Positions 893 through 23,968 of a DNA stretch of 32,000 nt are shown here, in pieces. Origin of the DNA: Trichodesmium erythraeum IMS101 (lineage in GTDB: Bacteria > Cyanobacteriota > Cyanobacteriia > Cyanobacteriales > Microcoleaceae). The notes beneath the pieces were generated by a model that searched no databases, had not been told where the DNA came from, and worked only from the letters and a program-made list of their open reading frames with translations. The stretch's first letter is position 1; the number at the start of each line of letters is the position of its first letter. The stretch is taken from the NCBI RefSeq assembly GCF_000014265.1, contig NC_008312.1, positions 3,210,001-3,242,000 of the forward strand. The letters are read 5' to 3'. The translations under genes and the position numbers were made by a program.

Positions 893-1867
893 ATGTCCCA
901 GACTTTCAACCAAGGATACGCTGTTGTTATCGGAGTAGGTGATGATTTGCCGATCACAATTGATGATGCTACTGCCATTGCCAATGTATTGGGTGATTTA
1001 TCTCGTTGCGCCTATCCTACTGATCAAGTGCGTTTACTAACAGGTGAAAAAGCAAACCGTGCCAATGTTCTATCTGCTTTGAGCTGGCTGGCTGAGACCA
1101 CGGGAAAAGATGACACGGCGATCGTTTATTTTTCTGGTCATGGAATTGAAAAACCAGATTATTATTTGATGCCTTATGGTTATAATTTAGAAAATTTGGA
1201 GGGTACAGCTATTCGAGGCGAAACTTTTACGGAGTGTCTGAGAGCTATTAAAACTAAAAAATTACTGGTACTGTTAGACTGCTGCCATGCTGGTGGACAG
1301 GCAGACCCTAAGGGAATTATAAAATCACCTCTACCTCCATCGGCGATCGCTCAGTTGGGGAGCAGTAGTGGTAGGGTTATACTTGCTTCTTCGCGAAAAG
1401 ATGAACTATCTTGGACGGGAAAGCCATACAGTGTTTTTACTGTAGCATTGTTGGAGGCTTTGGCTGGTTATGGCATATTTGAACAAGACGGCTATGCTCG
1501 CGTTTTGGATCTTGCTATGTGGGTCGGACGCAAAGTCCCAGAACGTACAGGGGATGAACAGCACCCTATCATCAAGGTCTCTAATTTAGAGGATAATTTT
1601 GCTTTGGCTTGGTATGCTGGGGGGGAGAAAAGTGTGCGCCCATTGCCAAAATGGGAAACTAATATTCCATCTATTACACCAGGGTTGGATATTGAACAGG
1701 TGGCTACCTGGCGACGGATGTTGGCTAACTATCGTGAAAATCTTCTGTTAATTGAAGAACGCATGAGTGAATTTGTTGAATTTACTGATGTTCCACTAAC
1801 ACTTTTGAAAAATAAACGTCGGATAGAGGCGGAAATAACTAAGTTGGAAAAAAAATTGGGGGGTTAA
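893..1867 (+). CDS. Caspase-like cysteine protease (peptidase C14 fold) with a C-terminal helical adaptor tail
   Basis: ATG start. Caspase/metacaspase-type catalytic dyad motifs YFSGHG (His83) and LLVLLDCCHAGG (Cys131). N-terminal beta-strand YAVVIGVG. The C-terminal ~50 aa (nt 1712-1858) are helical and charged, and homologous to the N-terminus of the next gene. Confidence 0.85.
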   Translation: MSQTFNQGYAVVIGVGDDLPITIDDATAIANVLGDLSRCAYPTDQVRLLTGEKANRANVLSALSWLAETTGKDDTAIVYFSGHGIEKPDYYLMPYGYNLENLEGTAIRGETFTECLRAIKTKKLLVLLDCCHAGGQADPKGIIKSPLPPSAIAQLGSSSGRVILASSRKDELSWTGKPYSVFTVALLEALAGYGIFEQDGYARVLDLAMWVGRKVPERTGDEQHPIIKVSNLEDNFALAWYAGGEKSVRPLPKWETNIPSITPGLDIEQVATWRRMLANYRENLLLIEERMSEFVEFTDVPLTLLKNKRRIEAEITKLEKKLGG

Positions 1868-2171
1868 CTACTGAGGCCGAATAGTTAAAAGTTGGAGAAA
1901 TGTTAATGAATATTGAAAGTATGCTGATTATCTACTATCATAGATTAAGTTTTTTTCAAAAAATTACAGTTTTTTTTCATGGTTTACCAGCTCAAATGAA
2001 GTCAATTAAGACATAGTTAAAAGTTAACAATTACCAATAGAAAAAAAACCATACTTGCCAAATATCTAGGTGTGGTTTGCTGATTTATAGCTTCCCTAAT
2101 GTCATACTTATAACTGGGGAATCAAAGCTTGTATTTTTGAGTAAGAATAACTAAAATGACTATTAAAGTTA

Positions 2172-3308
2172 ATGGATGAGATTGAATCTATTGAAAAACA
2201 AATTAACAATACTAAAAAAAATCTACTTCTGACTGAGGAAAGAATATCTGAATATCCTGAGACTACGAGTGTTCCACTAAAAGACATCAAGAATAAACGA
2301 AAGTTAGAGACTAGGTTAAAAAAATTGAGAGCTCAATTAATAGGTCTTGATAAGCATCGCGATCGCTTAAAAGAACGTCGTGATATTCCTCCTTTACTTC
2401 CTTACTTTGTTAATCGTAGTAGTCAACAAATTGAACTTAAAGAAGCATTAAAAAAATTGTTCAATCATCCTTATTCTCAGCCACTTTTATGTATAATTCA
2501 CGGGGATAAATTACAATGTCATGATACATTTTTTCAATTTCTTGAAAAGGAGTTTCTGCCAAAAATATTCAAGGAAAATACCAATATAAATACAAATAAT
2601 AACTATACAGAATTTATCAAAGAATACCAACTGAAATGGCCGCCGAGAAATACTTCTATAGAAGACTTAAAAAATAGACTAGAACACAATTTAGTAGATA
2701 CGGTACTTGACAATAAATTTGCTTCAAAAGCAGACATAAATGAGTACCTGGCTAGTATTGGAACAGTTATTATTCACACACATTTGCTCACTGCTGATTT
2801 GCAGGAAAATTCATCTATAATTATTGAAAAATTTATAGAATTTTGGCAAGATTGGCCTGAACTTATTCCTAATCAACATCTAATTATTTTCTTGTTTATT
2901 AAATACAAAATTGAACCAAAACAAAACTATTTTCAGAAACTACAGAATTGGATTTTTCAGAATCTATTCAAGAATAATTCCAACACTCGAACCGGGAATT
3001 ATTCTATTCAAAAAAGTATCAAAGATTTGTCTTCCTCTAACTTTACTAAATTTGATAAAATTATCGGGGTAGTTCTGCCCGAACTTCAAGGAATTACGCA
3101 AACAGAAGTAGAAGACTGGGCCCGTAGGGAAGAAGTAAAGAATTATTGGGATGAGGAAAATATTCAAGATTTAATTAATATAATTGAGGATATGTTTGAA
3201 AAATGGGAGAAACAGCAAGCATCTGATACTATGCCTATGTCTAATTTAGCTATAAAATTGACTGATATTTTGATGGGAAAAATACCTATCAAGGAGGATA
3301 CTGCATGA
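2172..3308 (+). CDS. Adaptor protein: N-terminal helical module shared with the caspase tail, plus a P-loop-less STAND-like body (iSTAND/VMAP-like; inferred)
   Basis: 378-aa ORF. Its stop overlaps the MoxR start (ATGA at 3305-3308). Residues 8-56 align without gaps to caspase residues 274-322. The segment LPYFVNRSSQQIELKEALKK..PLLCIIHGDKLQCHDTFFQFL has the strand-loop-helix layout of a STAND NTPase, but no GxxxxGK[ST]. Confidence 0.6.
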   Translation: MDEIESIEKQINNTKKNLLLTEERISEYPETTSVPLKDIKNKRKLETRLKKLRAQLIGLDKHRDRLKERRDIPPLLPYFVNRSSQQIELKEALKKLFNHPYSQPLLCIIHGDKLQCHDTFFQFLEKEFLPKIFKENTNINTNNNYTEFIKEYQLKWPPRNTSIEDLKNRLEHNLVDTVLDNKFASKADINEYLASIGTVIIHTHLLTADLQENSSIIIEKFIEFWQDWPELIPNQHLIIFLFIKYKIEPKQNYFQKLQNWIFQNLFKNNSNTRTGNYSIQKSIKDLSSSNFTKFDKIIGVVLPELQGITQTEVEDWARREEVKNYWDEENIQDLINIIEDMFEKWEKQQASDTMPMSNLAIKLTDILMGKIPIKEDTA

Positions 3309-4297
3309 ATTTTCCATTTTACTTTGGTGACGGAAAACGGAAACCAAATAATACACCAGCTACTCTACCTGTGTCGCGACGAGCCGAATTTATCAAACCA
3401 GAAAATTATTTGGCAGATCCTGGTCTTCGCGATGCCTGCAACGTTGCTTTACTCTTGGGTCAACCCTTATTACTTACTGGAGAACCCGGTACTGGCAAGA
3501 CTTTGTTCTCTTATAGTCTAGCCTGGGAATTGGGTTTTGACGAACCACTGAAGTTTGAAACCAAGTCTACCAGCACTGCCCGGGATTTATTTTACAGCTA
3601 TGACTCCTTGAAACAATTTCAAGATGCCCAAAACAGTATATTAGACAGAAAACCTCTAGACTATCTGACATACAATGCTTTGGGTCAAGCCATCTTGCTC
3701 ACTAAAGAGCCCTCTGAAATTGAGAACTTTGTACCTCCAGATTTTTTTCACCCTGGTAAAAGACGCTCTATCGTTCTCATTGACGAAGTAGATAAAGCAT
3801 CCCGTGATTTTCCTAATGATATCCTCAACGAATTGGAGTATCTATACTTTCGGGTCCGAGAACTGGGCAATATCAAGATTGAAGCTAACTCCAAACTACA
3901 GCCTATAGTCGTCATTACCAGCAACTCTGAGAAAGACCTTCCGGATGCATTTTTGCGGCGTTGTGTTTACTACAATATTCCTTTTCCACAAAAAGAGCGC
4001 CTTGAGAATATTGTTACCAATAGACTAGGTTTGTACTCTGCTGGTAGTAGTGACTTTCTCCAGGACGCTCTAGATATTTTTTTTCAGCTACGAAAAAGCG
4101 GCTTGCGGAAGAAACCGACTACTTCTGAACTTTTGGGTTGGATGATAGCGCTCCAAGAAATTTCAGGCGGTGCAGAAAACCCCCTGGTTCAGTCTGAGCT
4201 GGCTCTGCAAACCTTGAGTAATTTGATTAAAACTGCTGAGGATCAAGATAAAGCTAAGGAGATAATGAAGCAATGGGTAAAAAGTCGCCAAAGTTAA
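3305..4297 (+). CDS. MoxR-like AAA+ ATPase (AAA_5 type)
   Basis: Walker A LLLTGEPGTGKT, Walker B IVLIDEVDKA, sensor/arginine region DAFLRRC. About one third identical by eye to the second MoxR-like ORF at 28692-29666. Translationally coupled to both neighbouring genes. Confidence 0.85.
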   Translation: MNFPFYFGDGKRKPNNTPATLPVSRRAEFIKPENYLADPGLRDACNVALLLGQPLLLTGEPGTGKTLFSYSLAWELGFDEPLKFETKSTSTARDLFYSYDSLKQFQDAQNSILDRKPLDYLTYNALGQAILLTKEPSEIENFVPPDFFHPGKRRSIVLIDEVDKASRDFPNDILNELEYLYFRVRELGNIKIEANSKLQPIVVITSNSEKDLPDAFLRRCVYYNIPFPQKERLENIVTNRLGLYSAGSSDFLQDALDIFFQLRKSGLRKKPTTSELLGWMIALQEISGGAENPLVQSELALQTLSNLIKTAEDQDKAKEIMKQWVKSRQS

Positions 4298-6798
4298 GCC
4301 CAGGGTGGCTAGAACCAGAACAGTTGATGGAATTCATTGATCAGCTTCGTAGAGAATACAAATACAATATCGGTGTATCCCAATATATTGCAGCTCAAGA
4401 GTTGATACTTGCTTTGAGTGCAAAAGGAGAGCAGTTAGAAGAACCCCAGAGGCTTAAAAGTCTTCTCGGTCCCTTGTTATGCAGTTCCCCAGCAGAACAA
4501 GAAGATTTCCAACTACGGTTTGACCAATGGATGGAACGTATGGGTTTTACCGTTCGCGAAGTTATTCATGCTGACGAAAATGCTGAGGCTCTTGAACAGG
4601 AGTTAAAAAAGATGCGGCAGGAATGGCGATGGCTACGGTGGGTACGTTTAGCGATCGCTGTTTTTCTTGTTATTGTTCTAACCAATTTCCTGATACAGGA
4701 TTTTTCGGCTTTAACTTCCCGGATGCAGCAGTTTCCCACTCCAACAGTAGATCCCTTGAAACTATTTCCACCTCAAACTCTTCAAGAATGGCGGACTACA
4801 TTTTTATGGTTAATACTCGTGCCCCCGGTTACATTCTTAGTTTGGAGACTATGGTGGCGTTGGCGTGTGGCTCTATACCTCAACCGTCGTCAGACCAGGC
4901 GGCCTCCTGAAATTCAGCGAGTGTCTATATCAGGGCTAAATGAGGAACTATTTCCCAGAGTTTTGTTTTTGCGCATTGCTCAGGGTTTGAGGCGACGTAT
5001 TCGGGTTCCATCCAATGAACTTGATATTGACAAGACCGTAGAAAAAACTGTCCGGGGAGGAGTTAGGTTTGCCCCAGTATACGGCTACTATAAGCTTCTT
5101 CCTGAATACCTGGTTCTGATCGACCGGGCAAACTACAGCGACCACCAGGCGAGACTTGTCAAGGAAATGATTGCTCAATTAACCGAGAACGAAGTCTTAA
5201 TTATAGGTTACTATTTTGATGGCGACCCCAGGGTATGTTTTCCGGTTACAGGAAAAGGCTCTCCTTGTAAGTTACGGGAAATTTCTTTGAAGTACAGCCA
5301 GCATCGGCTCCTCATCTTCTCTGATGCAGAAGGTTTTTTTAATTCCCTGACTGGGGAACTTGAAGCCTGGCTTGATTTATTTTCAAGTTGGTCTCAGCGG
5401 GCTGTTTTCACTCCCAAACCTTCGGAACATTGGGGATATCAGGAACTGAAATTATCCCGAGAGTTTATTGTTCTACCTGCAACAAATGATGGGTTAATTG
5501 ACTTGATACGGAGCATTGAACATGGAAAACTGCCTTATGTGTCTTCAGAAAAAGGTAGGGCACCTTATCCGGAAGCATTGAGAGTGCGGGGGCGGCGCTG
5601 GGTTGAGCAAGATCCACCTGAGCCATGGTTGCTGACTAATGTCCTAGGGTCTGTCCGAAACTATCTGGGGGAAGCTGGTTACTATTGGCTGAGTGCTTGT
5701 GCTGTATTTCCTGAGTTAAATTGGAATCTCACGGTTTACCTGGGGAATGCTCTTAGTGCTGGTGATGGTCGTTCTTTGCTTCAGGCTTGTCGGCTAACAG
5801 TTCTCGCTCGTTTGCCTTGGTTTCGATATGGTTATATGCCTGACTGGCTGCGCTTGTGGTTACTTTCTGAGTTACCTCGCCACCAGGAGGATGAGGTTCG
5901 TCAACTGCTTAGAAGTTTCTTGGTGGCAAAACCTGATGAGCAAGGCTCAGTTGGAAGATGGCAATTGGAAATTGCTCGGCAATACAGCAATGTTGTCTCT
6001 AGGTTGGTGCAACCACTTCTCCGCTTATTTTCTGGGGAAGCTCCTGAGGATAGTCCTCTGCGGGATTATATTTTTCAGGAGTTTATGGCAGGTCGTAAGG
6101 GACTCGCAGTGAGAATGCCGGAAGAGTTACGGGAGGAACTCCGTCGCAAATATTCACAACAAGTAGGATGGTGGTTTTGGTTTCAGTGGGTGTTGGCAAA
6201 TAGTGTGGGTTTGTTTGTGGGTTTGTTTGTGGGTTTGTTTGTGGGTGGACGGGTTGACAATATTATGGTTAGTTTTCGTATTGCTGTTTTCGGTACTGTT
6301 TTCGGTGCTGTTGTGGGATCACTCCAGTGGTGGGTACTTAGAAAACGACTTTCCCAGGCTAGATGGTGGATACTGGCAACTGCCTTGGCATCAGCTATAC
6401 TATTCTCTACAGCAGAAGTTATGTTGAATGCTGTAAGGGACGTTGTGAGCAATACTGTGATTCAGGTTGTTGTTATATCTTCTGTGGTGGGACTTGTTAT
6501 CGGATCAGCTCAATGGTTGGTTCTCAGAAAACAACTTTCTCAATCTCACTGGTGGATACTGGCAAGTGTTTTAGGAATAACTGCTACGCTCTTTGCTATT
6601 GTTTATTCTTCGCTCTTTGCTATTGTTTATTCTTCGCTCTTTGCTATTGTTTATTCTTCAAGGTTCGAGCTGGGTCTGCTTAAGACTTTTATATCCTTCC
6701 TGAGCATTTTCGGCATTATATACGGAGTAATCACTGGATTTGCCTTAGTTTGGCTGCTGCGACAACCGGGCAATTCTGTCATCAACAATAAAAAGTAA
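4273..6798 (+). CDS. Large membrane protein, predicted MoxR partner: N-terminal helical domain, 2 TM helices, CoxE-type vWA-like domain with degenerate MIDAS, C-terminal multi-TM repeat domain
   Basis: 841-aa ORF overlapping the MoxR stop by 25 nt (alternative ATG at 4327). LRRRIRVPSNELDIDKTVEKTVRGG..(20 aa)..YLVLIDRANYSD (nt 5017-5142) mimics the CoxE-type vWA lead-in and beta1 strand, but DxSxS is replaced by DRANY. LLIFSDAEG (5308-5331) resembles the vWA 'llTDG' strand. Hydrophobic helices near aa 118-140, 175-200 and 630-830. Confidence 0.6.
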   Translation: MGKKSPKLSPGWLEPEQLMEFIDQLRREYKYNIGVSQYIAAQELILALSAKGEQLEEPQRLKSLLGPLLCSSPAEQEDFQLRFDQWMERMGFTVREVIHADENAEALEQELKKMRQEWRWLRWVRLAIAVFLVIVLTNFLIQDFSALTSRMQQFPTPTVDPLKLFPPQTLQEWRTTFLWLILVPPVTFLVWRLWWRWRVALYLNRRQTRRPPEIQRVSISGLNEELFPRVLFLRIAQGLRRRIRVPSNELDIDKTVEKTVRGGVRFAPVYGYYKLLPEYLVLIDRANYSDHQARLVKEMIAQLTENEVLIIGYYFDGDPRVCFPVTGKGSPCKLREISLKYSQHRLLIFSDAEGFFNSLTGELEAWLDLFSSWSQRAVFTPKPSEHWGYQELKLSREFIVLPATNDGLIDLIRSIEHGKLPYVSSEKGRAPYPEALRVRGRRWVEQDPPEPWLLTNVLGSVRNYLGEAGYYWLSACAVFPELNWNLTVYLGNALSAGDGRSLLQACRLTVLARLPWFRYGYMPDWLRLWLLSELPRHQEDEVRQLLRSFLVAKPDEQGSVGRWQLEIARQYSNVVSRLVQPLLRLFSGEAPEDSPLRDYIFQEFMAGRKGLAVRMPEELREELRRKYSQQVGWWFWFQWVLANSVGLFVGLFVGLFVGGRVDNIMVSFRIAVFGTVFGAVVGSLQWWVLRKRLSQARWWILATALASAILFSTAEVMLNAVRDVVSNTVIQVVVISSVVGLVIGSAQWLVLRKQLSQSHWWILASVLGITATLFAIVYSSLFAIVYSSLFAIVYSSRFELGLLKTFISFLSIFGIIYGVITGFALVWLLRQPGNSVINNKK
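6205..6246 (+). repeat. Perfect in-frame 12-bp tandem repeat (gtgggtttgttt x3.5) encoding (GLFV)3 inside a TM segment
   Basis: Read directly: units at 6205-6216, 6217-6228 and 6229-6240, plus a partial unit at 6241-6246. Confidence 0.95.
6587..6658 (+). repeat. Perfect in-frame 24-bp tandem repeat (cgctctttgctattgtttattctt x3) encoding (LFAIVYSS)3 inside a TM segment
   Basis: Read directly: units at 6587-6610, 6611-6634 and 6635-6658, all identical. Confidence 0.95.
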
Positions 6799-7925
6799 CA
6801 TACTTGCGCTGCAGGCTTTAAACATCTCACATCGACGCCTCACATCAGACTCCATTAATTAACCACAATACAAAAAGACAGCACAGACAACCAAACTATT
6901 AGGCAAATATCACAGCAACTTTCATATCATTAGACCACAGTAGGGAAATGCAACCCCCCTATCTACAACCTTCCTACAAAGCTTTAGTTATGGCGATGTA
7001 GTCAATAAACTTGAAAAGCGCTGTAAAATCCTTGGGTAACTAGGGGATATGATTTTATTATAAACAAGACTTAAGCAAACACCCAGATAATACCCGATCT
7101 GTAGGAGGCAAACACCAGAAAACTCCCACTAAATCAGCTATCAGCATTCAGATATCAGCTAGAAAGAGGAATTAGGTTGCAATAAAAATCAAAAGTCAGA
7201 CACAAAAAAGATGATCAGCTCAACTTAGTAACTTTTCAGCATTCATAATTCACCATTCAGAATTCACCATTCAGCTCGAAAAATAAATTAGCCTCCAAGA
7301 ACAATTAAAATTCCGACACAGATCTGAGAATTAATGACTAGCAAATATAGCAGTCCTACATCTTATGTAAAATCATTAGACATCTGAACAAAAAACTATT
7401 TCTCACACTCCTTCAACATCAGTTTTTCCTGCTGAGAGCCTTCAGCCTTCTGTTTCCAACCTCTTACCTTCTATTGTTTGCCTGAAAGCAGACCCAATAT
7501 TTCACCCTTCAGATAGGATGAGTAGACCTTTAGTCATATTTAAATAGCTTCTGCTAGTAGCCAAGCAACTTATTTTTTTAACCAATGTACATTTAACTTG
7601 CAAGTCATCAAAATAATCAACCTAAATTAGTAGTAAAAATGTAAATTTGTATCTAGTAATAAAACTGTTTTAAAGGTATAATTATCTGGATTTATGCTCA
7701 CTTAAATTAAAATTTCTGCTTATAATTATATCTAAACAATGCAGTCATGTCAAGACTTATATAAACTTTTTTTCAATCAAAAAAAAAGTAACAATCAATA
7801 CTAACAATGTTTAAAAAAATATGATAATTTCAAAAGTAAGGTTATAAAGATAACCTCTATTAACGGCAAAAAAAAAGCCATCATATTAATCATAAGAATT
7901 ACTTAGTTGAAAGAGGGAAATAACT

Positions 7926-14427: not shown

Positions 14428-16050
14428 ATGAGCTATTGTATAAATCCTGCCTGTCCTCAACCTCAAAATTTAAATAGTGTTAATAAATGTACTGCCTGTG
14501 GTTCACAGTTAATTTTGCGCGATCGCTATAAAATTATTAAACCTATTGGGAAAGGAGGTTTCGGAGTAACTTTTCTAGCCAAGGATATATCTTTGCCAGG
14601 AGCTCCCATTTGTGTAATTAAAGAACTACGGCCATCTAGTACAAAAGCAAGTGAATTAGAAATGGCTAGAAAACTATTTCAGCGAGAAGCAGAAACACTA
14701 GGAAAAATTGGCCATCATCCCCAAGTTCCCAGATTATTAGATTATTTTGAATGGAAGAAACGTTTTCATCTAGTTCAAGAATATGTAAGTGGTTTAACCT
14801 TAAAACAGGAGGTCAAAAAACAGGGAATATTTACTGAAGAACAAGGGAAAAAGTTTCTAATTGAAGTGTTGTCAGTCATAGATTATATACACACTCAAGG
14901 AGTAATTCACCGAGATATTAAACCTACAAATATTATTCGGCGGAGTGAAGATGGTCATTTAGTTCTGATAGACTTTGGTGCTGTCAAAGATCATGTGAAC
15001 CAAACTTATATATCAGGTGGTACAGGAGAAACTGCTTTTACAAATATCTCTATAGGTACTTCAGGTTTTTCACCACCAGAACAAGTGCTTTTGCGACCTG
15101 TATATGCAAGTGATATATATGCTTTGGGAGTAACTACCATTTTCTTACTGACGGGAAAAACTCCAAATAATCTTGGTTATAATCAGGTTAATGGCGAAAT
15201 TCTCTGGCATTCTCAAGTTAATGTTAGTGATATGTTTAGGGAAATCTTGAAAAAAATGCTAGAAGTTTCTGTAGAAGATCGCTTCCAGTCAGCAGAAGAA
15301 CTTTTAGCAGCTTTGAAGACAAAACAACCTGAGAAAAAACAGGTACAACCCAGACTAGATGATGCTGTTAAAACTATATTTAGAGATGAAATTACAGTTT
15401 TTAATGACAATAAAGATAATTTTTCATCGATGTCTGCCAATATTAAAATTGCTCAAAAAATTCGGCAACGCAAATATGGTTTAGAAAAAAACTCTACAAA
15501 TCAAGTTCTACCTAATTCTGTGAAGACGAAGCCCAAACATATTGAAGGATATTTGACGGTAGTACCTCCAAAAAGCAAAGCAACTAATACAACACAATTG
15601 GGTAATGAAACTCCTATAAAATGGACTGCGGCGACCTTGCGCAGTGCTTATATGAAAGGTAGAAGAGATTTTGCTGAGTGTAATTTAATTCGCTTGAATT
15701 TGTGCAATGCTAAGTTATCTGGAGCTAATTTTTATGGGGCAAATTTGGGTGGAGCTAATTTGCAAGGTGCAGATTTATCTGATTCTAATTTTGGTCATGC
15801 TAATTTAACTAATACTATCCTGAAAAATGCAACTCTGACTAAAGCTTATTTAAGTACAGCCAGTTTGGCAAATTCTAATTTGCAGAACGCAAATATGAAA
15901 AATACTTATTTGAGTGGCGCAAATTTAGGGGGTGCTAATTTGTATGGTGCTAATCTCACAAATGCAATAGTGAGCGATCGTCAACTTGAGACAGCAAAAA
16001 CTAATTGGTGGACGATTTTTCCTAATGGTAAAAGAGGTTCGATATTCTAA
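14428..16050 (+). CDS. Ser/Thr protein kinase with N-terminal Cys4 zinc-ribbon-like motif and C-terminal pentapeptide repeats
   Basis: CINPACPQ...CTACGS. Glycine loop GKGGFGVTF, VIKEL lysine, HRDIKPTNII catalytic loop, DFG, SPPE. From about aa 420 onward, A(N/D)LxG-type pentapeptide repeats (GANLGGANLQGADLSDSNFGHANL...). Confidence 0.9.
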   Translation: MSYCINPACPQPQNLNSVNKCTACGSQLILRDRYKIIKPIGKGGFGVTFLAKDISLPGAPICVIKELRPSSTKASELEMARKLFQREAETLGKIGHHPQVPRLLDYFEWKKRFHLVQEYVSGLTLKQEVKKQGIFTEEQGKKFLIEVLSVIDYIHTQGVIHRDIKPTNIIRRSEDGHLVLIDFGAVKDHVNQTYISGGTGETAFTNISIGTSGFSPPEQVLLRPVYASDIYALGVTTIFLLTGKTPNNLGYNQVNGEILWHSQVNVSDMFREILKKMLEVSVEDRFQSAEELLAALKTKQPEKKQVQPRLDDAVKTIFRDEITVFNDNKDNFSSMSANIKIAQKIRQRKYGLEKNSTNQVLPNSVKTKPKHIEGYLTVVPPKSKATNTTQLGNETPIKWTAATLRSAYMKGRRDFAECNLIRLNLCNAKLSGANFYGANLGGANLQGADLSDSNFGHANLTNTILKNATLTKAYLSTASLANSNLQNANMKNTYLSGANLGGANLYGANLTNAIVSDRQLETAKTNWWTIFPNGKRGSIF

Positions 16051-16721
16051 AATAGAATTGATTATATAAGCTTACTCCCATAGACCTCTTTTAAATCAAA
16101 AAAAATTTAGGTATAATTGTAGTGAAAATATTGTCAAGGCACTTAGTAATCCTAAATATTATCTAAAATTATATGCTTTACTTAAAAAATAACTCCAACT
16201 CCTATGACTTCAGCACAAGTGTCTTGGTGCTTCAGGCCTTAAATCAGTAGATTTTTTTTGACTTTGGGAACAAAATCATGAGAAACTTTCAGTGATTCTC
16301 TGATTTAATGATCAGAATATCTTTACTCTAGCCATTTTAGCTACCAAAGTTCTTCTGATTTATTTGGCCTCTTTTGTCTGATTAATAACATGATTGAAGT
16401 TATCATAAATAACTATTAACTTTGGCCTCAATTAGATTGTCAGAAAAAATATTCTCTTTGAGAATTTAATGGTGATCAAGCTGATAGCATAAAATATTAT
16501 CGCTTCATCGTCCCAAAGATTTCCTTGAAACTCTTCCGACGGCCAATAGTTGGTAGAAGTAGAACTAAATGCTTGTGGAAAAGAAGCTCAAAAGTAGCTC
16601 TTAATAAGCAATAACTAAGCTTAAGGGAAACCCTGAGAAGCAAGCACCTCTCGTTGTCTATACTTTTAACAGTGAGAGTGCCAAAATCTAATAGTTGAAT
16701 TTTAGGAATGACAGTATAGGC

Positions 16722-18179
16722 ATGGCATCCATTAGCGATATCCATCAACAATTAATCAGTAAGCAACGCTCTGCTGTAGAAATTACCCAAGAAGCTCTCG
16801 AAAATATCAACCAATTGGAGCCGAAGTTAAAAAGCTTTATCTGTGTTACAGCAGAAAAGGCCATTGCTCAGGCCCGTCAGGTGGATGCAAAGATTGCTGC
16901 AGGAGAGAAAATTGGACTACTAACAGGGATTCCGATCGCTGTAAAGGATAATATATGTACTAGGGGTATCCCTACTACTTGTGGGTCTAAGATTTTACAA
17001 AACTTTATTCCCCCTTATGAATCTACGGTAACTCAAAAACTTGTGGATGCTGGGGCAATAATTTTAGGCAAGACCAATTTAGATGAATTTGGTATGGGCA
17101 GTTCAACAGAAAATTCTGCCTATCAAGTCACGACTAACCCGTGGGATAACACTCGAGTTCCTGGTGGATCTTCGGGAGGGTCAGCAGCAGCAGTAGCATC
17201 GGCAGAATCTGTAGTAGCATTGGGTTCAGATACAGGTGGGTCGATTCGTCAACCAGCATCTTTTTGTGGAGTGGTAGGAATTAAGCCTACTTATGGTCTG
17301 GTTTCTCGCTATGGGTTAGTGGCTTATGCTTCTTCTATGGATCAAATAGGGCCGTTGAGTAGAACTGTGAAAGATTCTGCTATTTTATTGCAGGCGATCG
17401 CTGGTTATGACCCTAAAGATTCTACTAGTCTTAATGTCCCTGTCCCAGATTACACTAAAAACCTCACACCTAATTTAAGACCTAAAGGGCAAATTAGAAT
17501 TGGTCTCATTCAAGAGACTTTTGGTGATGGTTTAGACTCATCTGTTCTTCAAGCTTTTACTAAGGCAGTGGAACTAATGCAGGAGTTGGGGGCAGAAATT
17601 CAGGTAATTTCTTGTCCTAGATTTAGTTACGGTTTACCTACTTATTATGTTATTGCTCCATCGGAGGCTTCGGCAAATTTAGCCCGCTATGATGGGGTCA
17701 AATATGGTTTCCGTGCTAGTGAGTCGGAAAACCTCTTGAATATGTATGCTAAGACTCGTTCTGAAGGTTTTGGTTCAGAAGTTAAACGCCGAATTATGAT
17801 TGGTACTTATGCTTTATCGGCTGGATATTATGATGCTTATTATCTGAAAGCTCAAAAAGTTCGGACTTTAATTAAGGAAGATTTTGATAAAGCTTTTGCT
17901 AAAGTAGATATTTTGGCTTGCCCCACTTCTCCAACTACAGCATTTAAGCTGGGTGAAAAAAGTGATAATCCACTGAGTATGTATTTGTCTGACTTAATGA
18001 CTATTCCAGTTAATTTGGCTGGTTTACCTGCTTTGAGTTTACCCTGTGGCTTTGATCAACAAGGGTTGCCTATTGGTATGCAATTGATAAGTAATGTTTT
18101 GAAAGAAGATTTACTATTTGAAGCAGCTTATGTTTATGAACAAGCTAATAATTGGTATAAATTCCAACCTCAGCTTTAA
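16722..18179 (+). CDS. gatA: Glutamyl-tRNA(Gln)/aspartyl-tRNA(Asn) amidotransferase subunit A
   Basis: Amidase signature [12 protein letters not shown]...[12 protein letters not shown] and GatA-type N-terminus. Start moved to the in-frame ATG at 16722 ([11 protein letters not shown]), because the listed start at 16695 is a TTG. Confidence 0.93.
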
Positions 18180-19984
18180 AAATTTAGTTTTGAGTTTTGA
18201 GTTTTTATTGATTAGGTTTGAAGTGTTCATAATAGTGTGTTAGTTAATAGCTGCAATTGGAGCTTAGGAGTTAGGCACACGTTGGGAATAATTAAGTAGT
18301 TGTGCTAAGTTAATTACACATCTATACTATACAAGTTAAATTATTTGCTATATTGTAAGATTAGGTAATTCGGGGTTTGCTCACAAAATGAAAGGATTTA
18401 CCTAAATCTTACTAAGGGCTTTGTTTATTTGTATAAAAAATGTATAAGAAGTTGGTACGAGGATGTTGAAAATTGAGGATTTTCATTCAGCTATTAAAAC
18501 TAGAAAAATTGAAAGAAAATTCTTCCAATCACATCCTCTTGCTCTTGAATTTTCATTTATCTGTGCCTCTGTGGGTCACTCAATTAGTTCATATCTACCT
18601 GCCTCCTAACCTCACTCATGAAACTTATTCAGTAAGTCCTAATAAAATAGGTAAATAATTTTGCTGATGCACTCAACAATATTAACAAGTATAAACAGGA
18701 ATATACTAAGAGCTTCCATTTACATAATTTGTGAAAAATTAACAAAAAATACCTATAAGTTTTGATAGTTATATAATTTTTTTATCTCTCAAAATAATTT
18801 GCTTTGAAAGCAAGAAAATGAATGAAAAAAAGAAGTATTAATATTCTTTTTGCCGACTTATTGACTAGACTGACAATATAATAAAAATTTTTGAAGTTTC
18901 TCTAAAATATTAATAGTGAAAAACTGAGGCTGATAATTATTCTAATCTGGTATTAGCTGTGAAATTATTATGAATGGGGTAGAAGAATATACAATATATT
19001 TTGTAATGGTACTTAATTAATTAAGGGGACATAATTTAATTATCAACTTTTGTTATTTAGATTATGAAGTTGGTCTGAAAGCGCTTTCGGTTGTTATAAG
19101 ATAAGGATACGGGGGCAAGATGCCTGCAATACATGATTTTCACTATTACTTTATACATCATTTGCCCGATCGGATGTCTTAGTTGTTGGGATAGTTACTA
19201 TTATTACTATGGAAGTAGTCACTATTTCTGAAAGACTCATTCATAAAAGAACTAAACTTAAACTATTTATTAAAAACTTTTTTACTTGAGCGAAAATTAA
19301 CATAATTAGTAGAGCGTTAATCGTGCAAAAAGGTTACTCTATTTGTGTTAATTCTTTAAATTTTATGAAGTTTTATAAAAAGTTTGCATTAATTTACGGG
19401 AATTGTTGTTGCAGTGGCGTTTTCTAGATATAGAGGAAGGCTGCAAATGTTACTGATCAATAGTCTCAAAATAATAGTAATTAGCCCAAGTTATCAATGT
19501 TACAAAAAAAATTATGATGTCCAAGTCTAATAAAATATTAATAATTATTAGTAGGGTGAATCAAAATTTATTCAAACTAATTAGAGCTGCTTTTTTTTCA
19601 ACTTAGTTTGTTTAGTCTATCAAGCTCACCTTGGTTAGGTTAGAGTTCTATTTGACTGCAAAAAATAAGCTCTTTTGACTTTAAAGTCTATGTTCATTTT
19701 TCTGGCCAGGCCTTAGCTAATAGGAAACCCCGGGTATAAAGGTTGGGAAGTTATGGCTCAGTCCTTTATTTAGGAAGGGCTGTAATTTGAAAAAATATCT
19801 TCTTACTAAGGCGCGTTTTTTATGAATGCTTAAGTTTATGAGATACACTATGGAGAAAAAGTAGTCTAGTAATCTTGACAAAATAATTATCTTGTGATAT
19901 AGTCGACAGACTGTATTAAAGGGGTTATTCAAAATAAATATAATACAACGACTATAAACAATCAATTAGGAGACTATACCTAAG

Positions 19985-20479
19985 ATGAGTTTACTAAATA
20001 AGGTATTTGAAGCTTACAATGGACATCGGGTTATGTTTTCACAACCTGAAGCAATAGCTGCAATTGCAGCGTCTGCAATTGCTTCAGATGGTTATCTTTT
20101 AGAACAAGAAACAGAGCTGGTTATAACACTTTTATCTCAAATGGAAGTATTTAAAGGCTATTCAGAAAAACAAATTACGAATATGCTTAATAGGTTGTTA
20201 AGTACACTCAGCGTCAAAGGAATTAATAATGTAGTAGCGATAGCTAATGATTCACTACATCCGGAGTACAAAGAAGCAGTTTTTATGTTAGCTACTGAAA
20301 TAATTTTAGTAGATGGGGTTTTATGTGGTAAAGAACAAGCGTTTTTAATTGATTTGTTTCAGGTATTGGAAATCTCTTCAGAAAGGGCTTCACAAATTTT
20401 TACCTCTAAATCAGAGGCCTATCGGGTTACTAATAAGAAATCTAAAAACTATAGAATTAATCAAGGTTCTCTTAAGTAG
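19985..20479 (+). CDS. TerB-like (tellurite-resistance TerB family) small protein
   Basis: Two helical halves, each with the TerB-type pattern A..ASDG.L...E / E.ILVDG.L...E..FL..L...L.I. Size matches the conserved cyanobacterial TerB-family proteins. Confidence 0.55.
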   Translation: MSLLNKVFEAYNGHRVMFSQPEAIAAIAASAIASDGYLLEQETELVITLLSQMEVFKGYSEKQITNMLNRLLSTLSVKGINNVVAIANDSLHPEYKEAVFMLATEIILVDGVLCGKEQAFLIDLFQVLEISSERASQIFTSKSEAYRVTNKKSKNYRINQGSLK

Positions 20480-20556
20480 ATGAGAATATAGTTTGATCAT
20501 AAAATTACGAACATAGATATACTAGATAACTTAAGGATCATTTCTTATTGATTAAT

Positions 20557-21741
20557 TTATTTACATGAAATAATTTTTTCATAGGCTTGAATGGTTTGTG
20601 TGGCGATCGCTTGCCAACTATAATTATTTTTCGCTAACTCTTGAGCATTCAAACCCCGGCGTTTTCTCTCTGCTTCATCCTGCAAAGCTAATTTCATTAA
20701 AGCAGCCATGTCTTCTGTTTTGCAACCACCAACCCAACCTGCTTCTGCATTTGCTACATCTTGATAAATATAAACTTGGTCTGAAATCACTACGGGGGTA
20801 CCTGCTATCATAGCCTCTGCTACTGCAATACCAAAGTTTTCATAATAAGAAGGTAGTACAAATAAATCAGCAATTCTTAATAAACTTGTCTTTATTTCCC
20901 CTGTAACAAACCCCATTATTTTGGTAAACTTAGCAATAGGTGAAGCCTTTATTTGTGAGTAAATTTGTGCCTCATAATTAGGATCTTGAGGATTTGCACC
21001 TGCTAAGATAAATTGAAAATCTACCCCTTGTGCTAACAATTTTTCTAAAGCAGGTAATAATAAATCTAGTCCTTTTTTTGGTTCAATGCGAGACATAAAT
21101 AAAATTATGGGATGTTTCACTTCTACTCCTTGAGATCGGAGACTATTAACTAAATTTTCATCTTGAATATTCTCTAGAGTATTGACTCCATTGGGAATTA
21201 CTAAGTCTTTTGTAGATAAGCCAAATCTTTCGGAAACTTTTGCCTCTTGTGTTGTGGTAAAATGAAGGGCAGCAGCATGAGCAATATTCCGCTTTTCTAA
21301 GAGAGAAACATAAATTTTTTTGAGTTGTTTTTTCTTGCGTAGATCAGCGGGGTCTAAGGTTCCTAATGGTCTTAAAATATAGGGTAAGTTATTGGTTCTA
21401 GCAACAGTTGCAGCTATGGTTGTTACTGGTGAAAAAAGAGCATGAATATGAGCTAAATCAAATTCAGTAGCGTGTTCATTTAACCATTGTAATAATTGTA
21501 GAGAAAATTTATAACGACGAAACGGAGAACAAGGAAAATAACGAATTTGATAACCATTTTGTTTGACAGGTTTATTGATAGGAACATCTAAGGGTGGCTG
21601 ACCAGTGTCTCCATTAGAATTTGTGGTGAGAATGGTAACATCTATGTTCTGAGTGGCAAGAGCGGTAGAAAGTCCTATAACCATTTGACTCGGACCGCCA
21701 TAAACAAGAGATATAGATGGTAATATTTGTACTATTCGCAT
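20557..21741 (-). CDS. Glycosyltransferase, GT4 (group 1) family
   Basis: GT-B architecture: N-terminal MRIVQILPS..YGGP, C-terminal R.EPKKG.D.LL and E-x7-E region PSYYENFGIAVAEAMIAGTPVV. Confidence 0.85.
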   Translation of the reverse strand: MRIVQILPSISLVYGGPSQMVIGLSTALATQNIDVTILTTNSNGDTGQPPLDVPINKPVKQNGYQIRYFPCSPFRRYKFSLQLLQWLNEHATEFDLAHIHALFSPVTTIAATVARTNNLPYILRPLGTLDPADLRKKKQLKKIYVSLLEKRNIAHAAALHFTTTQEAKVSERFGLSTKDLVIPNGVNTLENIQDENLVNSLRSQGVEVKHPIILFMSRIEPKKGLDLLLPALEKLLAQGVDFQFILAGANPQDPNYEAQIYSQIKASPIAKFTKIMGFVTGEIKTSLLRIADLFVLPSYYENFGIAVAEAMIAGTPVVISDQVYIYQDVANAEAGWVGGCKTEDMAALMKLALQDEAERKRRGLNAQELAKNNYSWQAIATQTIQAYEKIISCK

Positions 21742-22565: not shown

Positions 22566-22697
22566 TTAAAGAGTTCTCCCGCCGTCGCAGACTACACGAA
22601 AACCGATAACGTCGTAGTGGACGTCGCGCCCAGCAGAGTTGTAGCGAATCGCAGAACGGCAATCATTAGGAATGTTGACCCAGGAACCGCCCCGCAG
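22566..22697 (-). other. Candidate DGR variable region (VR-B), including the stop codon
   Basis: See the DGR finding. Gapless 132-nt alignment with 23969-24100, with mismatches concentrated in codon positions 1-2 of NNY codons. Confidence 0.6.
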
Positions 22698-23411: not shown

Positions 23412-23888
23412 GTAACTACTTTTGCAAATGTTGGGGGGGCTGAAGGAATTTTCAGTTTTACTCTATGTTGCTTAAAGTTTCCTCACCTAATTTTACCTTG
23501 AAGATAATCTTTTTGCAATTTTTTTAGTCTTTTTCTTCCAGGATGGAGATCACTGTTTCTAACTCAAATTGTTTGAGGAAAAACTCTAGAGTCTAGAAAT
23601 ATAGACTTAGGTTTAAATGCTTTTTATACGGTACAGAAATTGTTTGCAAACCTGTACAGAAGAGCAGGGAATTTACTCACCCCCAACCCCGACGTGGAGG
23701 GAAGGTCAAATTATTAGTCGTTATATCTCCGACTATAAATTTATGACTTTTGGGGAATCTTTCAATTATTGGGACATAGTATTTGACTAAATCATAGGTT
23801 TTTTGGACAACTGATAATTCTTTCATTTTTTTTTACTTTAGGGTTTTGTCATTTGTCGAAAATTTAAGACACTTGACACTTGGACATC

Positions 23889-23914
23889 AAAAAAATTTTT
23901 CCCGCTTCGCGGGA
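23889..23914 (-). terminator. Putative intrinsic terminator of the 892-aa gene
   Basis: Minus strand reads tcccgc-gaa-gcggga, followed by aaaa and then ttttttt. This is a 6-bp GC-rich stem (23900-23914) about 55 nt after the stop codon. Confidence 0.5.
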
Positions 23915-23968
23915 GGTAAAGGAAAAAGAAACATAGTGTAAAGGGCAAAAGGGGAAAAGGGAAAAGGG

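What the first reader, a model, noticed from the sequence alone, without database searches (positions are those of the whole stretch)
893..6798. Caspase / adaptor / MoxR AAA+ / vWA-like membrane protein: a four-gene predicted NTP-gated cell-suicide module
Seen in sequence:
- A caspase-fold protease with an intact His83/Cys131 dyad.
- A 378-aa protein whose N-terminus repeats the caspase tail.
- A MoxR-type AAA+ ATPase.
- An 841-aa membrane protein with a CoxE-type vWA-like domain.
- The last three genes are translationally coupled (ATGA overlap at 3305-3308; 25-nt overlap at 4273-4297).
- The caspase gene sits 304 bp upstream on the same strand.
Established: MoxR ATPases work with vWA partners. 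From memory, comparative genomics (Kaur, Burroughs, Iyer and Aravind, eLife 2020) predicted vWA-MoxR-VMAP 'ternary' conflict systems in multicellular bacteria that deliver effectors through effector-associated adaptor domains.
Inference: this locus is a member or variant of that class in which the effector (caspase) is a separate polypeptide recruited through a shared helical module. The vWA partner is membrane-embedded and has lost its metal site. To my knowledge no such module has been tested experimentally.
Basis: partly seen in the sequence, partly recalled or inferred. Interest (0 to 1): 0.85.

Follow-up and report, generated by a model that had tools for sequence, protein, structure and literature searches.

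The report
Caspase-linked iSTAND MoxR-vWA conflict system
This Trichodesmium locus is a good example of a predicted but untested bacterial defence or cell-suicide system (the iSTAND type of MoxR-vWA 'ternary' systems), in which a caspase-like protease is probably docked onto its hub protein through a small shared helical adaptor that no domain library names.

Summary
All the sequence observations hold: the four ORFs, the His83/Cys131 dyad, the 4-nt and 25-nt gene overlaps, and a real 58-aa similarity between the caspase tail and the N-terminus of the 378-aa protein (z = 20 against shuffles).

[quoted passage not shown] 2020). The 378-aa protein is an inactive STAND hub (Pfam iSTAND). The ATPase belongs to the AAA_5/Midasin lineage. 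The 841-aa protein has the family's conserved core and a variable C-terminus, here six TM helices. Its vWA fold is supported only structurally (best hit NorD). The metal site is degenerate family-wide, but both key aspartates are kept.

The triad keeps its order in about 67 of 78 related loci. The separate caspase gene is confined to one clade (Trichodesmium, Okeania, Dapis, some Nostoc).

The new element is the adaptor. It has 509 cluster representatives, sits on caspase, CHAT and TIR proteins and on iSTAND, VMAP and nSTAND1-WD40 hubs, and matches no Pfam or NCBIfam model.

Verdict: a new member of a known, computationally predicted kind. No experimental test of the iSTAND type was found. A canonical VMAP system lies 16 kb away in the same window.

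The parts
893..1867 (+). Gene 1: orthocaspase-type protease (324 aa) with a C-terminal adaptor module
   Evidence: Peptidase_C14 E 3.7e-21, residues 8-236; H83/C131 dyad; the identical protein is on at least 22 Trichodesmium contigs in the same context
1691..1858 (+). Adaptor module, copy 1 (caspase residues 267-322)
   Evidence: Homologous to the N-terminus of gene 2; matches the 162-sequence module profile at E 4e-31
1868..2171 (.). 304-bp intergenic spacer, specific to Trichodesmium
   Evidence: The spacer is 17-20 bp in Okeania, Nostoc and Dapis orthologous loci. It is unique in the window and found only in Trichodesmium loci. It has no terminator-like site and one promoter-like site at 1913-1941, not above chance
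2172..3308 (+). Gene 2: iSTAND hub protein (378 aa): adaptor module, inactive STAND domain, helical C-terminal region
   Evidence: Pfam iSTAND PF19995 E 1.8e-14, residues 77-243, above the gathering score. There is no Walker A: CIIHGDKLQCHD. It is the fastest-diverging component among orthologues
2172..2345 (+). Adaptor module, copy 2 (iSTAND protein residues 1-58)
   Evidence: E 6.6e-22 against the module profile
3305..4297 (+). Gene 3: MoxR-clade AAA+ ATPase (330 aa), apparently catalytically intact
   Evidence: AAA_5 3.6e-8. The family profile hits Midasin best in PDB sequences, 5.7e-13. It is 30% identical (E 1e-35) to the ATPase of the Pfam-verified VMAP system in the same window. Walker A/B and RR are invariant. 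The ATGA overlap with gene 2 and an AAGGAGG site are present
4273..6798 (+). Gene 4: membrane-anchored vWA-like component (841 aa)
   Evidence: 229 homologues share the first ~620 aa and differ in the C-terminus. AlphaFold model has mean pLDDT 78. It overlaps gene 3 by 25 nt
4315..4539 (+). N-terminal four-helix domain (residues 15-89), predicted cytoplasmic
   Evidence: Four helices in the model. Kaur 2020 describes a CoxE-like 4-helix N-domain for this component. Homology to CoxE was not tested here
4576..4887 (+). Two-TM hairpin (residues 102-205)
   Evidence: Long helices at 102-152 and 169-205. A hydrophobicity scan finds two TM segments here in 44 of 52 homologues and one in the other 8
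4999..5523 (+). Divergent vWA-like alpha/beta domain (residues 243-417), with D284 and D351 at strand ends
   Evidence: Domain model pLDDT 83. The best PDB match is NorD vWA 9qhe_G: E 6.6e-4, prob 1.00, TM 0.42/0.40.
5572..6156 (+). Conserved helical linker region (residues 434-628; presumably the 'vWA-L' of Kaur 2021), ending in a basic flexible segment FMAGRKGLAVR
   Evidence: Helical and high pLDDT, with a dip below 50 at 611-615.
6169..6762 (+). Variable C-terminal domain: six predicted TM helices (residues 633-830) with an internal repeat (QWxVLRKxLSQxxWWIL) and in-frame DNA tandem repeats
   Evidence: Homologues of this domain occur mainly in the caspase-coupled clade. No Pfam family matches

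Best explanation
The four genes form an iSTAND-type MoxR-vWA 'ternary' conflict system of a filamentous cyanobacterium (Trichodesmium).

Shown:
- Gene 2 encodes an inactive STAND hub.
- Gene 3 encodes an apparently active AAA+ ATPase of the AAA_5/Midasin (MoxR-clade) lineage.
- Gene 4 encodes a membrane-anchored protein with a cytoplasmic, divergent vWA-like domain and a hypervariable C-terminus.
- Gene 1 encodes a caspase-fold protease with an intact dyad, whose C-terminal 55-aa helical module is homologous to the N-terminus of the hub.

Inferred:
- The two module copies bind each other, as CARD binds CARD in the apoptosome, so the hub concentrates and activates the protease.
- The ATPase ring grips the vWA domain (as NorQ grips NorD through a pore-inserted finger) and uses ATP to remodel it. 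This sets an energy-dependent threshold, so the system fires only on a real signal.
- The fast-evolving iSTAND protein and/or the fast-evolving C-terminal membrane domain perceives the trigger, such as phage infection or envelope damage.
- Firing ends in proteolysis, possibly including cleavage of gene 4's product at the basic flexible segment before the membrane domain. This causes arrest or death of the affected cell and protects the rest of the filament.

I put about 0.9 on membership of the iSTAND class, about 0.6 on a conflict or cell-death role, and no more than about 0.35 on either direction of signal flow.
For: Class membership:
- iSTAND Pfam hit above the gathering score, and in 55 of 57 orthologous third components.
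- ATPase: AAA_5, Midasin top PDB hit, paralogous to the ATPase of a VMAP-C-linked system.
- NorD vWA is the top structural hit twice.
- The iSTAND, ATPase, vWA order and strand are conserved: iSTAND is found in 67 and the ATPase in 70 of 78 loci, and the rest are mostly cut by contig ends.
- The C-terminus of gene 4's family is hypervariable, with FGS commonest, as Kaur 2020 describes.
- Hosts are filamentous cyanobacteria, Beggiatoaceae, Chloroflexi and Acidobacteria.

Adaptor:
- z = 20 similarity, paired in 10 of 10 loci of the clade.
- In 38 of 57 loci the iSTAND N-terminus matches the adjacent upstream product, whatever the module. Partners are trypsin-EAD9, CHAT, TIR and CHAT-NACHT-bDLD3.
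- The module has 509 representatives, at C-termini of caspase, CHAT and TIR proteins and at N-termini of iSTAND, VMAP-C and nSTAND1-WD40 proteins.

Conflict role:
- iSTAND is 30-68% identical among orthologous quartets, and the C-terminal domain 27-48%, where the caspase and ATPase are 73-91%.
- A second ternary system and other conflict-type genes lie in the same window.

MoxR-vWA mechanics: PMC13036017 and PMC9976466. Published models: Kaur 2020 section 35.
Against: No experiment exists for any iSTAND-type system in the library searched.

The vWA assignment is weak: no sequence profile detects it, TM is only about 0.4, and phosphoribosyltransferases and other Rossmann-like folds score close behind.

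The canonical MIDAS DxSxS-T-D is not intact, so peptide capture may work differently.

Neither the module-module interaction nor the module's helical fold was modelled.

The proposed cleavage site rests only on conservation of basic residues and a pLDDT dip.

The 304-bp spacer with a promoter-like site means the caspase may be transcribed separately in Trichodesmium.

The link between the caspase and the polytopic C-terminus comes from essentially one clade.
Confidence: 0.6

Rival explanations
1. Reversed signal flow (Dore et al. 2024). The variable C-terminus of the vWA protein, here a polytopic membrane domain, is the sensor of envelope or membrane perturbation. MoxR relays the signal to the iSTAND hub, and the recruited caspase is the terminal effector that degrades cellular proteins.
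For: The variable C-termini in the family are mostly binding-type domains (FGS/CLec, WD40, TPR, pentapeptide, CVNH). About 20 of 52 homologues have a single TM after the core, which would put that domain outside the cytoplasm. iSTAND N-termini or their partners are classical effector enzymes (TIR, caspase, CHAT, trypsin, PNP). The module also heads nSTAND1-WD40 proteins, where the N-terminus is the output end. The model is published for VMAP systems with DGR-diversified targets (PMC10907252).
Against: iSTAND itself is as hypervariable as the C-terminus, which a passive relay would not need. Some C-termini are enzymes (amidase, VanY, trypsin). The window's C-terminal domain has no obvious ligand-binding part.
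Confidence: 0.3
2. Housekeeping chaperone. The MoxR-vWA pair matures or inserts a cofactor into a membrane protein complex, as NorQD, CoxDE and RavA-ViaA do. The caspase and iSTAND proteins are processing or regulatory accessories, with no role in conflict.
For: All experimentally characterised MoxR-vWA pairs are maturation chaperones. The closest structural match is NorD. Gene 4's product is an integral membrane protein.
Against: No client gene is conserved nearby; the flanks differ between loci. The third component and C-terminus are hypervariable. Partner domains are TIR, CHAT, trypsin and Death-like. The distribution is patchy and biased to multicellular bacteria. The locus clusters with another conflict system. 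The MIDAS site is degenerate.
Confidence: 0.07
3. Stress-triggered or developmental programmed cell death rather than anti-invader defence. The system links membrane or energy stress (iron or phosphorus starvation, high light, oxidative stress) to caspase activation during Trichodesmium bloom collapse.
For: Cell death accompanied by expression of caspase homologues is reported for Trichodesmium (PMC3501461). The system is membrane-anchored and ATP-dependent, so it could read energy status. The exact protein recurs in many field assemblies.
Against: Hypervariability of iSTAND and of the C-terminus suggests an arms race with a changing partner rather than a fixed physiological cue. The same architecture occurs with many different outputs across phyla. 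No expression data were examined here.
Confidence: 0.15

Closest known systems
vWA-MoxR-iSTAND ternary conflict systems (Kaur, Burroughs, Iyer, Aravind, eLife 2020; extended in eLife 2021)
   Same: It has an inactive-STAND third component, a MoxR-clade ATPase without the VMAP-type extensions, and a vWA component with a 4-helix N-domain, TM segments, a helical linker and a variable C-terminus. The gene order is the same. It is concentrated in cyanobacteria and other filamentous bacteria. A peptidase is coupled through a domain shared between the iSTAND N-terminus and the adjacent gene product.
   Different: The coupling domain matches none of the Pfam EAD or bDLD models. The C-terminal 'effector' is a polytopic membrane domain rather than FGS, repeats or PG-binding domains. 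Whether this exact locus is in the authors' source data could not be checked.
   Same: They share a paralogous MoxR ATPase (30% identity to the one at 28692-29666), the overall ternary logic, EAD coupling and peptidase or TIR inputs.
   Different: Their third component is VMAP-C, not iSTAND. [quoted passage not shown] A real VMAP system (EAD7-VMAP-C) sits on the other strand of this window.
Apaf-1/caspase-9 apoptosome (CARD-CARD recruitment)
   Same: A STAND-family hub and a caspase-fold protease each carry a copy of one small helical adaptor. The same adaptor also heads nSTAND1-WD40 proteins, which have an Apaf-1-like layout.
   Different: The hub's NTPase is inactive and the energy input is delegated to a separate AAA+ ATPase. 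The adaptor looks like a two-helix hairpin of about 53 aa, not a six-helix Death fold (not modelled). On the caspase it is C-terminal rather than N-terminal. The protease is an orthocaspase or metacaspase type, expected to cut after Arg/Lys.
NorQ-NorD, CbbQ-CbbO and RavA-ViaA MoxR-vWA chaperone pairs
   Same: An AAA+ ring plus a vWA partner encoded by the next gene. NorD is the best structural match for the vWA-like domain. A linker between the N-domain and the vWA domain is the likely remodelled element.
   Different: Those pairs mature metalloenzymes or respiratory complexes and have an intact MIDAS. This one has a degenerate MIDAS, a hub protein, a protease and a hypervariable C-terminus.
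Named effector-associated domains EAD7 and EAD9
   Same: Similar size (EAD7 and EAD9 have 62-position Pfam models), the same positional logic, and the same partners (peptidases, iSTAND, VMAP). The EAD9 sequences seen in these loci also look like a helix-turn-helix. EAD7 co-occurs with the module in small adaptor-adaptor proteins.
   Different: No detectable homology: hhalign probability 2.5% against EAD9, and the module profile does not match the window's own EAD7.

Membership tests
vWA-MoxR-iSTAND ternary system (Kaur 2020) | The third component contains the iSTAND domain | tested here: met
   PF19995 E 1.8e-14, 54.9 bits against cutoff 24; 55 of 57 orthologous third components match
vWA-MoxR-iSTAND ternary system (Kaur 2020) | The STAND module is catalytically inactive (no P-loop) | tested here: met
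   The expected P-loop strand reads LLCIIHGDKLQCHD, with no GxxxxGK[ST]. H110 and G111 are nearly invariant in the family
vWA-MoxR-iSTAND ternary system (Kaur 2020) | Adjacent AAA+ ATPase of the MoxR clade (helix-2 insert clade) | tested here: inconclusive
   AAA_5, Midasin as best PDB hit at 5.7e-13, and paralogy to the ATPase next to a VMAP-C gene all point to the clade. The 95-residue Walker A-to-B spacing fits an insert. The helix-2 insert itself was not examined structurally, and Pfam's MoxR model AAA_3 did not hit
vWA-MoxR-iSTAND ternary system (Kaur 2020) | Adjacent protein with a vWA domain | tested here: inconclusive
   No sequence-profile hit. The predicted alpha/beta domain's best PDB match is NorD vWA (E 6.6e-4, prob 1.00, TM ~0.4), and the Ro vWA domain is also listed, but other Rossmann-like folds score close behind
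vWA-MoxR-iSTAND ternary system (Kaur 2020) | Two conserved aspartates at the ends of core strands 1 and 4 of the vWA domain | tested here: met
   D284 (D in 38, N in 13 of 52 homologues) and D351 (D 41, E 8) are both present in the window protein
Canonical MIDAS-bearing vWA domains | DxSxS-T-D metal-ion-dependent adhesion site | tested here: not met
   The sequence is D284-R-A-N-Y. The serine positions are A/T/R/S and Y/F across the family. The motif definition comes from PMC9976466
vWA-MoxR-iSTAND ternary system (Kaur 2020) | Conserved three-gene neighbourhood across genomes, with a hypervariable C-terminus on the vWA component | tested here: met
   Same order and strand across 78 species-level loci (iSTAND in 67, ATPase in 70). 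C-termini include FGS, WD40, TPR, pentapeptide, trypsin, CVNH, PG-binding and TM domains
vWA-MoxR-iSTAND ternary system (Kaur 2020) | Acts against invaders or triggers regulated cell death | not testable with these tools
   Only indirect evidence: hypervariability, effector-type partners and clustering with a second system
VMAP ternary system | The third component carries VMAP-C | tested here: not met
   Gene 2 has iSTAND and no VMAP-C. VMAP-C is found only in the separate minus-strand gene at 29753-31144
Effector-associated domains (EAD principle) | One copy at a terminus of a core component and another on an effector or signalling enzyme, often in the adjacent gene | tested here: met
   The caspase C-terminus and iSTAND N-terminus share the module in 10 of 10 loci of the clade. 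Elsewhere it is C-terminal on caspase, CHAT and TIR proteins and N-terminal on iSTAND, VMAP-C and nSTAND1 proteins
Effector-associated domains (EAD principle) | Small, non-enzymatic, usually all-helical; homotypic interaction | not tested
   About 53 aa, with sequence pattern helix - [ED]xTDxPL - helix.
Named EAD families in Pfam (EAD1-EAD11, bDLD) | Matches the family profile | tested here: not met
   No EAD hit at E <= 10 for either copy. Of 89 carriers, none matched an EAD model attributable to the module; the 7 EAD7 matches, where located, map to other positions. hhalign against EAD9 gives prob 2.5%. The test has low power for short coiled-coil-like profiles
EACC1-caspase two-gene system | A 5' gene for the single-TM EACC1 protein and a caspase of the EACC1-associated type | tested here: not met
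   NF047832 scores 83.7 bits against cutoff 140. There is no EACC1-like gene upstream; the neighbour is a WG-repeat protein
Peptidase C14 (caspase / metacaspase / orthocaspase) | Caspase fold with a His-Cys catalytic dyad | tested here: met
   Pfam E 3.7e-21 over 229 residues. H83 and C131 lie in the canonical SGHG and DCCHAG motifs. Substrate specificity was not tested

The most novel reading that the evidence does not exclude
The ~53-aa helix-turn-helix module shared by the caspase and the iSTAND hub may be a formally undescribed, widespread adaptor family that plays the CARD role in bacteria. It would wire caspase, CHAT and TIR enzymes to three kinds of hub (iSTAND, VMAP, nSTAND1-WD40), sometimes through small adaptor-adaptor proteins (module plus EAD7) or tandem arrays. 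In Trichodesmium it could be the missing link between a sensor and the caspase-type activity seen when blooms collapse.
Probability: 0.3. Interest if true: 0.65.

Novelty: new member of a known kind. Interest (0 to 1): 0.45.

Why it matters
iSTAND-type ternary systems are a large predicted class of immunity or cell-death systems in multicellular bacteria. I found no experimental test of the iSTAND type.

This locus is compact: four genes, one protease, one adaptor pair and no repeat-rich sensor. That makes it a convenient entry point for asking how a MoxR-vWA switch gates a caspase.

It comes from Trichodesmium, a globally important nitrogen fixer whose bloom collapse has long been linked to caspase-like activity without a known upstream pathway.

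The adaptor module found here extends the list of Death-domain-like wiring elements in bacteria and gives a simple search handle (509 cluster representatives) for finding more effector-hub pairs.

Tried and rejected
(1) VMAP membership was rejected. Gene 2 has no VMAP-C domain.

(2) The EACC1-caspase system was rejected. The score is below cutoff and there is no EACC1 gene.

(3) Known anti-phage systems in PADLOC gave only generic caspase and P-loop hits.

(4) A sequence-level vWA/CoxE assignment for gene 4 failed: nothing in Pfam, NCBIfam or PDB sequences, even with a 52-sequence profile.

(5) 'The module is EAD9' and 'the module is EAD7' were both rejected by profile comparisons.

(6) 'The module is exclusive to the caspase-iSTAND pair' looked true from the loci and from the word-indexed search, which returned only short fragments. 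The exhaustive HMMER search overturned it.

(7) The 'stand-alone' small module genes (P0138, P0145) lie in frameshift-ridden assemblies and are probably fragments.

(8) The 304-bp spacer is not a repeat or mobile element within the window. There are no Rfam families in the window.

(9) The promoter and terminator scan was uninformative, with counts at chance level.

(10) I could not find what NCBIfam's 'MadB family AAA-type ATPase' refers to.

(11) The Kaur 2020 source data listing accessions is not held, so I could not check whether the Trichodesmium genes are already listed.

Full report
OBSERVATION

Protein 1 is a Peptidase_C14 caspase-fold protein (E 3.7e-21). H83 lies in SGHG and C131 in DCCHAG, and both motifs are conserved in all nine orthologues found.

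The last 58 residues of protein 1 align with the first 58 of protein 2 at 41% identity (E 2e-11). Because the segment looks coiled-coil-like, I tested it against 5000 composition-preserving shuffles. The observed Smith-Waterman score was 123 against 26 +/- 4.9, and no shuffle reached it. Other coiled-coil coupling modules from related loci score only 25-42 against it.

The ATGA overlap at 3305-3308 and the 25-nt overlap at 4273-4297 are real. AAGGAGG and TAAGGAG precede the two downstream starts. Similar overlaps recur in relatives. The one weak point is the 'vWA-like domain', discussed below.

WHAT THE PROTEINS ARE

Protein 2 is not just an adaptor. Residues 77-243 match Pfam iSTAND (PF19995, E 1.8e-14, above the gathering score). 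The position where a P-loop would be reads CIIHGDKLQCHD, so the STAND module is inactive.

Protein 3 matches AAA_5 and AAA. A 37-sequence family profile hits Midasin best among all PDB sequences (5.7e-13), and Kaur et al. place Midasin in the MoxR clade. Walker A, Walker B and an RR motif are invariant.

Protein 4 has no hit in Pfam, NCBIfam, PADLOC or PDB sequences, even with a 52-sequence profile. It does have 229 homologues that share the first ~620 residues and then diverge into FGS, WD40, TPR, pentapeptide, trypsin, CVNH, PG-binding, amidase, VanY, EAD10, Tic20-like or multi-TM C-termini.

An AlphaFold model of protein 4 (pLDDT 78, above 90 over much of residues 270-560) shows these parts in order:
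- four N-terminal helices (15-89);
- two long TM helices (102-205);
- an alpha/beta domain (243-417);
- a helical region (434-628);
- six TM helices (633-830).

The best PDB match is NorD, the vWA partner of the MoxR ATPase NorQ. This holds for the whole model (E 9.8e-3, prob 1.00) and for a separately modelled domain (pLDDT 83; E 6.6e-4, prob 1.00, TM 0.42/0.40). The Ro vWA domain also appears, but phosphoribosyltransferases and B12-binding domains score nearly as well. The fold is therefore vWA-like and very divergent.

On the metal site, D284 (end of strand 1) and D351 (end of strand 4) are both present and mostly conserved. These are the two residues Kaur et al. use as their criterion. The DxSxS serines of the canonical MIDAS are absent throughout the family, not just here.

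IDENTITY OF THE SYSTEM

Kaur et al. [quoted passage not shown] Their features are:
- an inactive STAND third component;
- a MoxR without the VMAP-type extensions;
- a vWA protein with a CoxE-like four-helix N-domain and TM segments in a subset;
- a highly variable C-terminal effector region, with FGS commonest;
- caspase, trypsin, TIR or EAD domains at the iSTAND N-terminus;
- a second EAD copy on an effector encoded by the adjacent gene.

Kaur et al. 2021 add the helical vWA-L linker. The locus fits this description point by point.

CONSERVATION

A scan of one genome per species returned 78 loci. They come from filamentous cyanobacteria, Beggiatoa, Thiomargarita and Marithrix, Chloroflexi, Acidobacteria and others. 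iSTAND is present in 67 and the ATPase in 70, always upstream of the vWA gene, in the same order and on the same strand. Most of the rest are cut by contig ends.

The separate caspase gene with the module occurs only in Trichodesmium, Okeania, Dapis and four Nostoc genomes. In L006, L027, L041 and L049 a caspase domain is instead fused to the iSTAND protein. Other iSTAND N-termini carry DUF4062, TIR, EAD9, EAD2, EAD8, bDLD3, PNP or trypsin.

In 38 of 57 loci the iSTAND N-terminus matches a segment of the adjacent upstream product. The partners include trypsin-EAD9, CHAT, TIR, CHAT-NACHT-bDLD3 and small proteins without Pfam domains. Split coupling of an enzyme to the hub is therefore the rule in this family, not a peculiarity of this locus.

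THE ADAPTOR MODULE

Within the 78 loci the module occurs only in the ten caspase/iSTAND pairs. A word-indexed database search returned only short fragments of those two kinds.

An exhaustive HMMER search with just the window's two copies gave a very different picture. It found 509 cluster representatives at E <= 1e-3 and 80 at E <= 1e-10. The matches are nearly full-length. Among the best 150, the module is at the extreme N-terminus in 75, at the extreme C-terminus in 55 and internal in 20.

The carriers include:
- caspase, CHAT and TIR proteins (among carriers whose partner domain I could place, CHAT and TIR carry the module at the C-terminus, as do most caspases; three caspase carriers have it internally);
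- iSTAND, VMAP-C and nSTAND1-WD40 or nSTAND1 proteins (module N-terminal);
- small proteins combining it with EAD7;
- tandem arrays of three or four copies.

This satisfies the positional definition of an effector-associated domain. The module nevertheless matches no Pfam EAD model. None of the 89 scanned carriers matched a Pfam EAD model that could be the module. In the four carriers where I could locate an EAD7-like segment, it lies at a different position from the module. The module shows no detectable relation to EAD9 (hhalign prob 2.5%) or to the window's own EAD7. Its consensus is ieslrrqLanarenLlLIeERkseYveetdiPLqLvkekrrlearIaeLearL, which reads as helix, turn, helix. The fold was not modelled.

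MECHANISM

The experimentally grounded parts come from NorQD. A finger from the vWA domain enters the pore of the AAA+ hexamer, ATP hydrolysis remodels a linker in the vWA protein, and the MIDAS face binds the client (PMC13036017 and PMC9976466).

For the conflict systems two models are published:
- Kaur et al. propose that the third component senses the invader, MoxR-vWA sets a threshold, and associated peptidases release C-terminal effectors.
- Dore et al. 2024 propose that the variable C-terminus of the vWA protein is the sensor and the N-terminal enzyme of the third component is the output.

My data bear on this choice in three ways.

First, topology. Almost all family members have the 2-TM hairpin, and 47 of 52 have at least one TM after the core. 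In about 20 a single TM precedes a soluble domain, which would then be extracytoplasmic.

Second, divergence rates. Among orthologous quartets the caspase domain (80-91%), the ATPase (73-98%) and the vWA core (56-95%) are conserved. The iSTAND protein falls to 30-32% in Dapis, where the caspase is 87% and the ATPase 88%. The C-terminal membrane domain falls to 27-48%. There are thus two hypervariable elements.

Third, a candidate cleavage site. The core-to-tail boundary carries a conserved basic segment (FMxGR..LAV[RK]) with a pLDDT dip. Metacaspases cleave after basic residues rather than aspartate (PMC3501461). This is only a candidate site.

I therefore commit to the general mechanism and leave the direction of signal flow open. 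In that mechanism the adaptor recruits the caspase to the iSTAND hub, a MoxR-vWA switch gates firing with ATP, and the output is proteolysis and membrane damage that arrests or kills the cell.

A 2026 preprint shows that a related beta-propeller MoxR-vWA pathway is needed for a defensive response in Actinobacteria. That supports the class as threat-sensing, but it is not the iSTAND type.

SURROUNDINGS

The organism is Trichodesmium. The best relatives are Trichodesmium MAGs, and the identical caspase is on at least 22 contigs in the same context.

The 304-bp caspase-iSTAND spacer is specific to Trichodesmium, against 17-20 bp in relatives, and is not repeated elsewhere in the window.

The same window carries a canonical VMAP ternary system on the minus strand: a DUF900 hydrolase, EAD7-VMAP-C, an AAA_5 ATPase 30% identical to protein 3, and an 892-aa protein ending in FGS. 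Nearby are a GT4-conflict glycosyltransferase, a TerB protein and a kinase-pentapeptide protein. The region therefore looks like a conflict island.

VERDICT

The paper and the logic are right, but the subtype is wrong and the novelty was overestimated.

The locus is a new member of a known, computationally predicted kind. The genuinely new item is the unnamed, widespread adaptor module.

Interest is moderate. A specialist would not be surprised by the system. It is, however, a compact and testable example, in an ecologically important organism with a long-standing open question about caspase-linked cell death.

Noticed in passing
window 22566-31981, minus strand: A second MoxR-vWA ternary system, of the canonical VMAP type. 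Its genes are a DUF900 alpha/beta-hydrolase (31214-31981), EAD7-VMAP-C (29753-31144), an AAA_5 ATPase (28692-29666, 30% identical to the iSTAND-system ATPase), a cupin, TauE, an 892-aa protein ending in FGS (23969-26647) and a 281-aa FGS protein (22566-23411).
   Followed up: partly
window 14428-21741: Further conflict-type genes between the two systems: a Ser/Thr kinase with pentapeptide repeats (14428-16050), a TerB-domain protein (19985-20479) and a glycosyltransferase matching Pfam GT4-conflict (20557-21741). The region looks like a defence island.
   Followed up: no
window 6204-6246 and 6587-6659: Perfect in-frame tandem repeats inside the C-terminal membrane domain of the vWA protein: 12 bp x 3.6 (encoding GLFV) and 24 bp x 3.0 (encoding LFAIVYSS). 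Trichodesmium homologues range from 821 to 859 aa, so repeat number may vary between strains.
   Followed up: no
window 1868-2171: The caspase-iSTAND spacer is 304 bp in Trichodesmium but 17-20 bp in Okeania, Nostoc and Dapis. It is unique DNA with a promoter-like site at 1913-1941, and a 36-aa ORF is called in it in some assemblies. The caspase may have become separately regulated.
   Followed up: partly
L010, L017, L020, L026, L029, L076 (iSTAND N-termini and the ~146-150-aa upstream proteins): In these loci the iSTAND N-terminus is a short Q/N/G-rich motif repeated near the C-terminus of a small upstream protein with no Pfam domain. From memory this resembles bacterial amyloid signalling motifs, a different coupling principle from the helical adaptors.
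   Followed up: no
L037 and L001 (Dapis) versus the window: The iSTAND gene is only 30-33% identical while the flanking caspase (87%), ATPase (88%) and vWA core (84-88%) are highly conserved. This suggests cassette replacement or extreme acceleration of the hub gene.
   Followed up: partly
P0173, P0184, P0284, P0198, P0155, P0172 (from the representative search): Small proteins consisting of EAD7 plus the new module, and proteins with three or four tandem copies of the module. These may be bridging or scaffolding adaptors that link different effector networks.
   Followed up: no
window 3305-4297: The ATPase's best named match is NCBIfam 'MadB family AAA-type ATPase'. The alignment is full-length but scores 77.8 bits against a cutoff of 475. 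I could not find what the Mad system is in the paper library.
   Followed up: partly
L035 9457-11773 (Nostoc sp. S9 bin 6): A caspase closely related to protein 1 abuts a vWA gene lacking its first ~250 residues, with no iSTAND or ATPase between them. This looks like a rearranged or decaying copy of the system.
   Followed up: no
window 6799-7925: A 1.1-kb stretch downstream of the operon has no ORF of 60 aa or more. It contains 7-bp and 14-bp tandem repeats at 7133-7274 and has no Rfam match.
   Followed up: no
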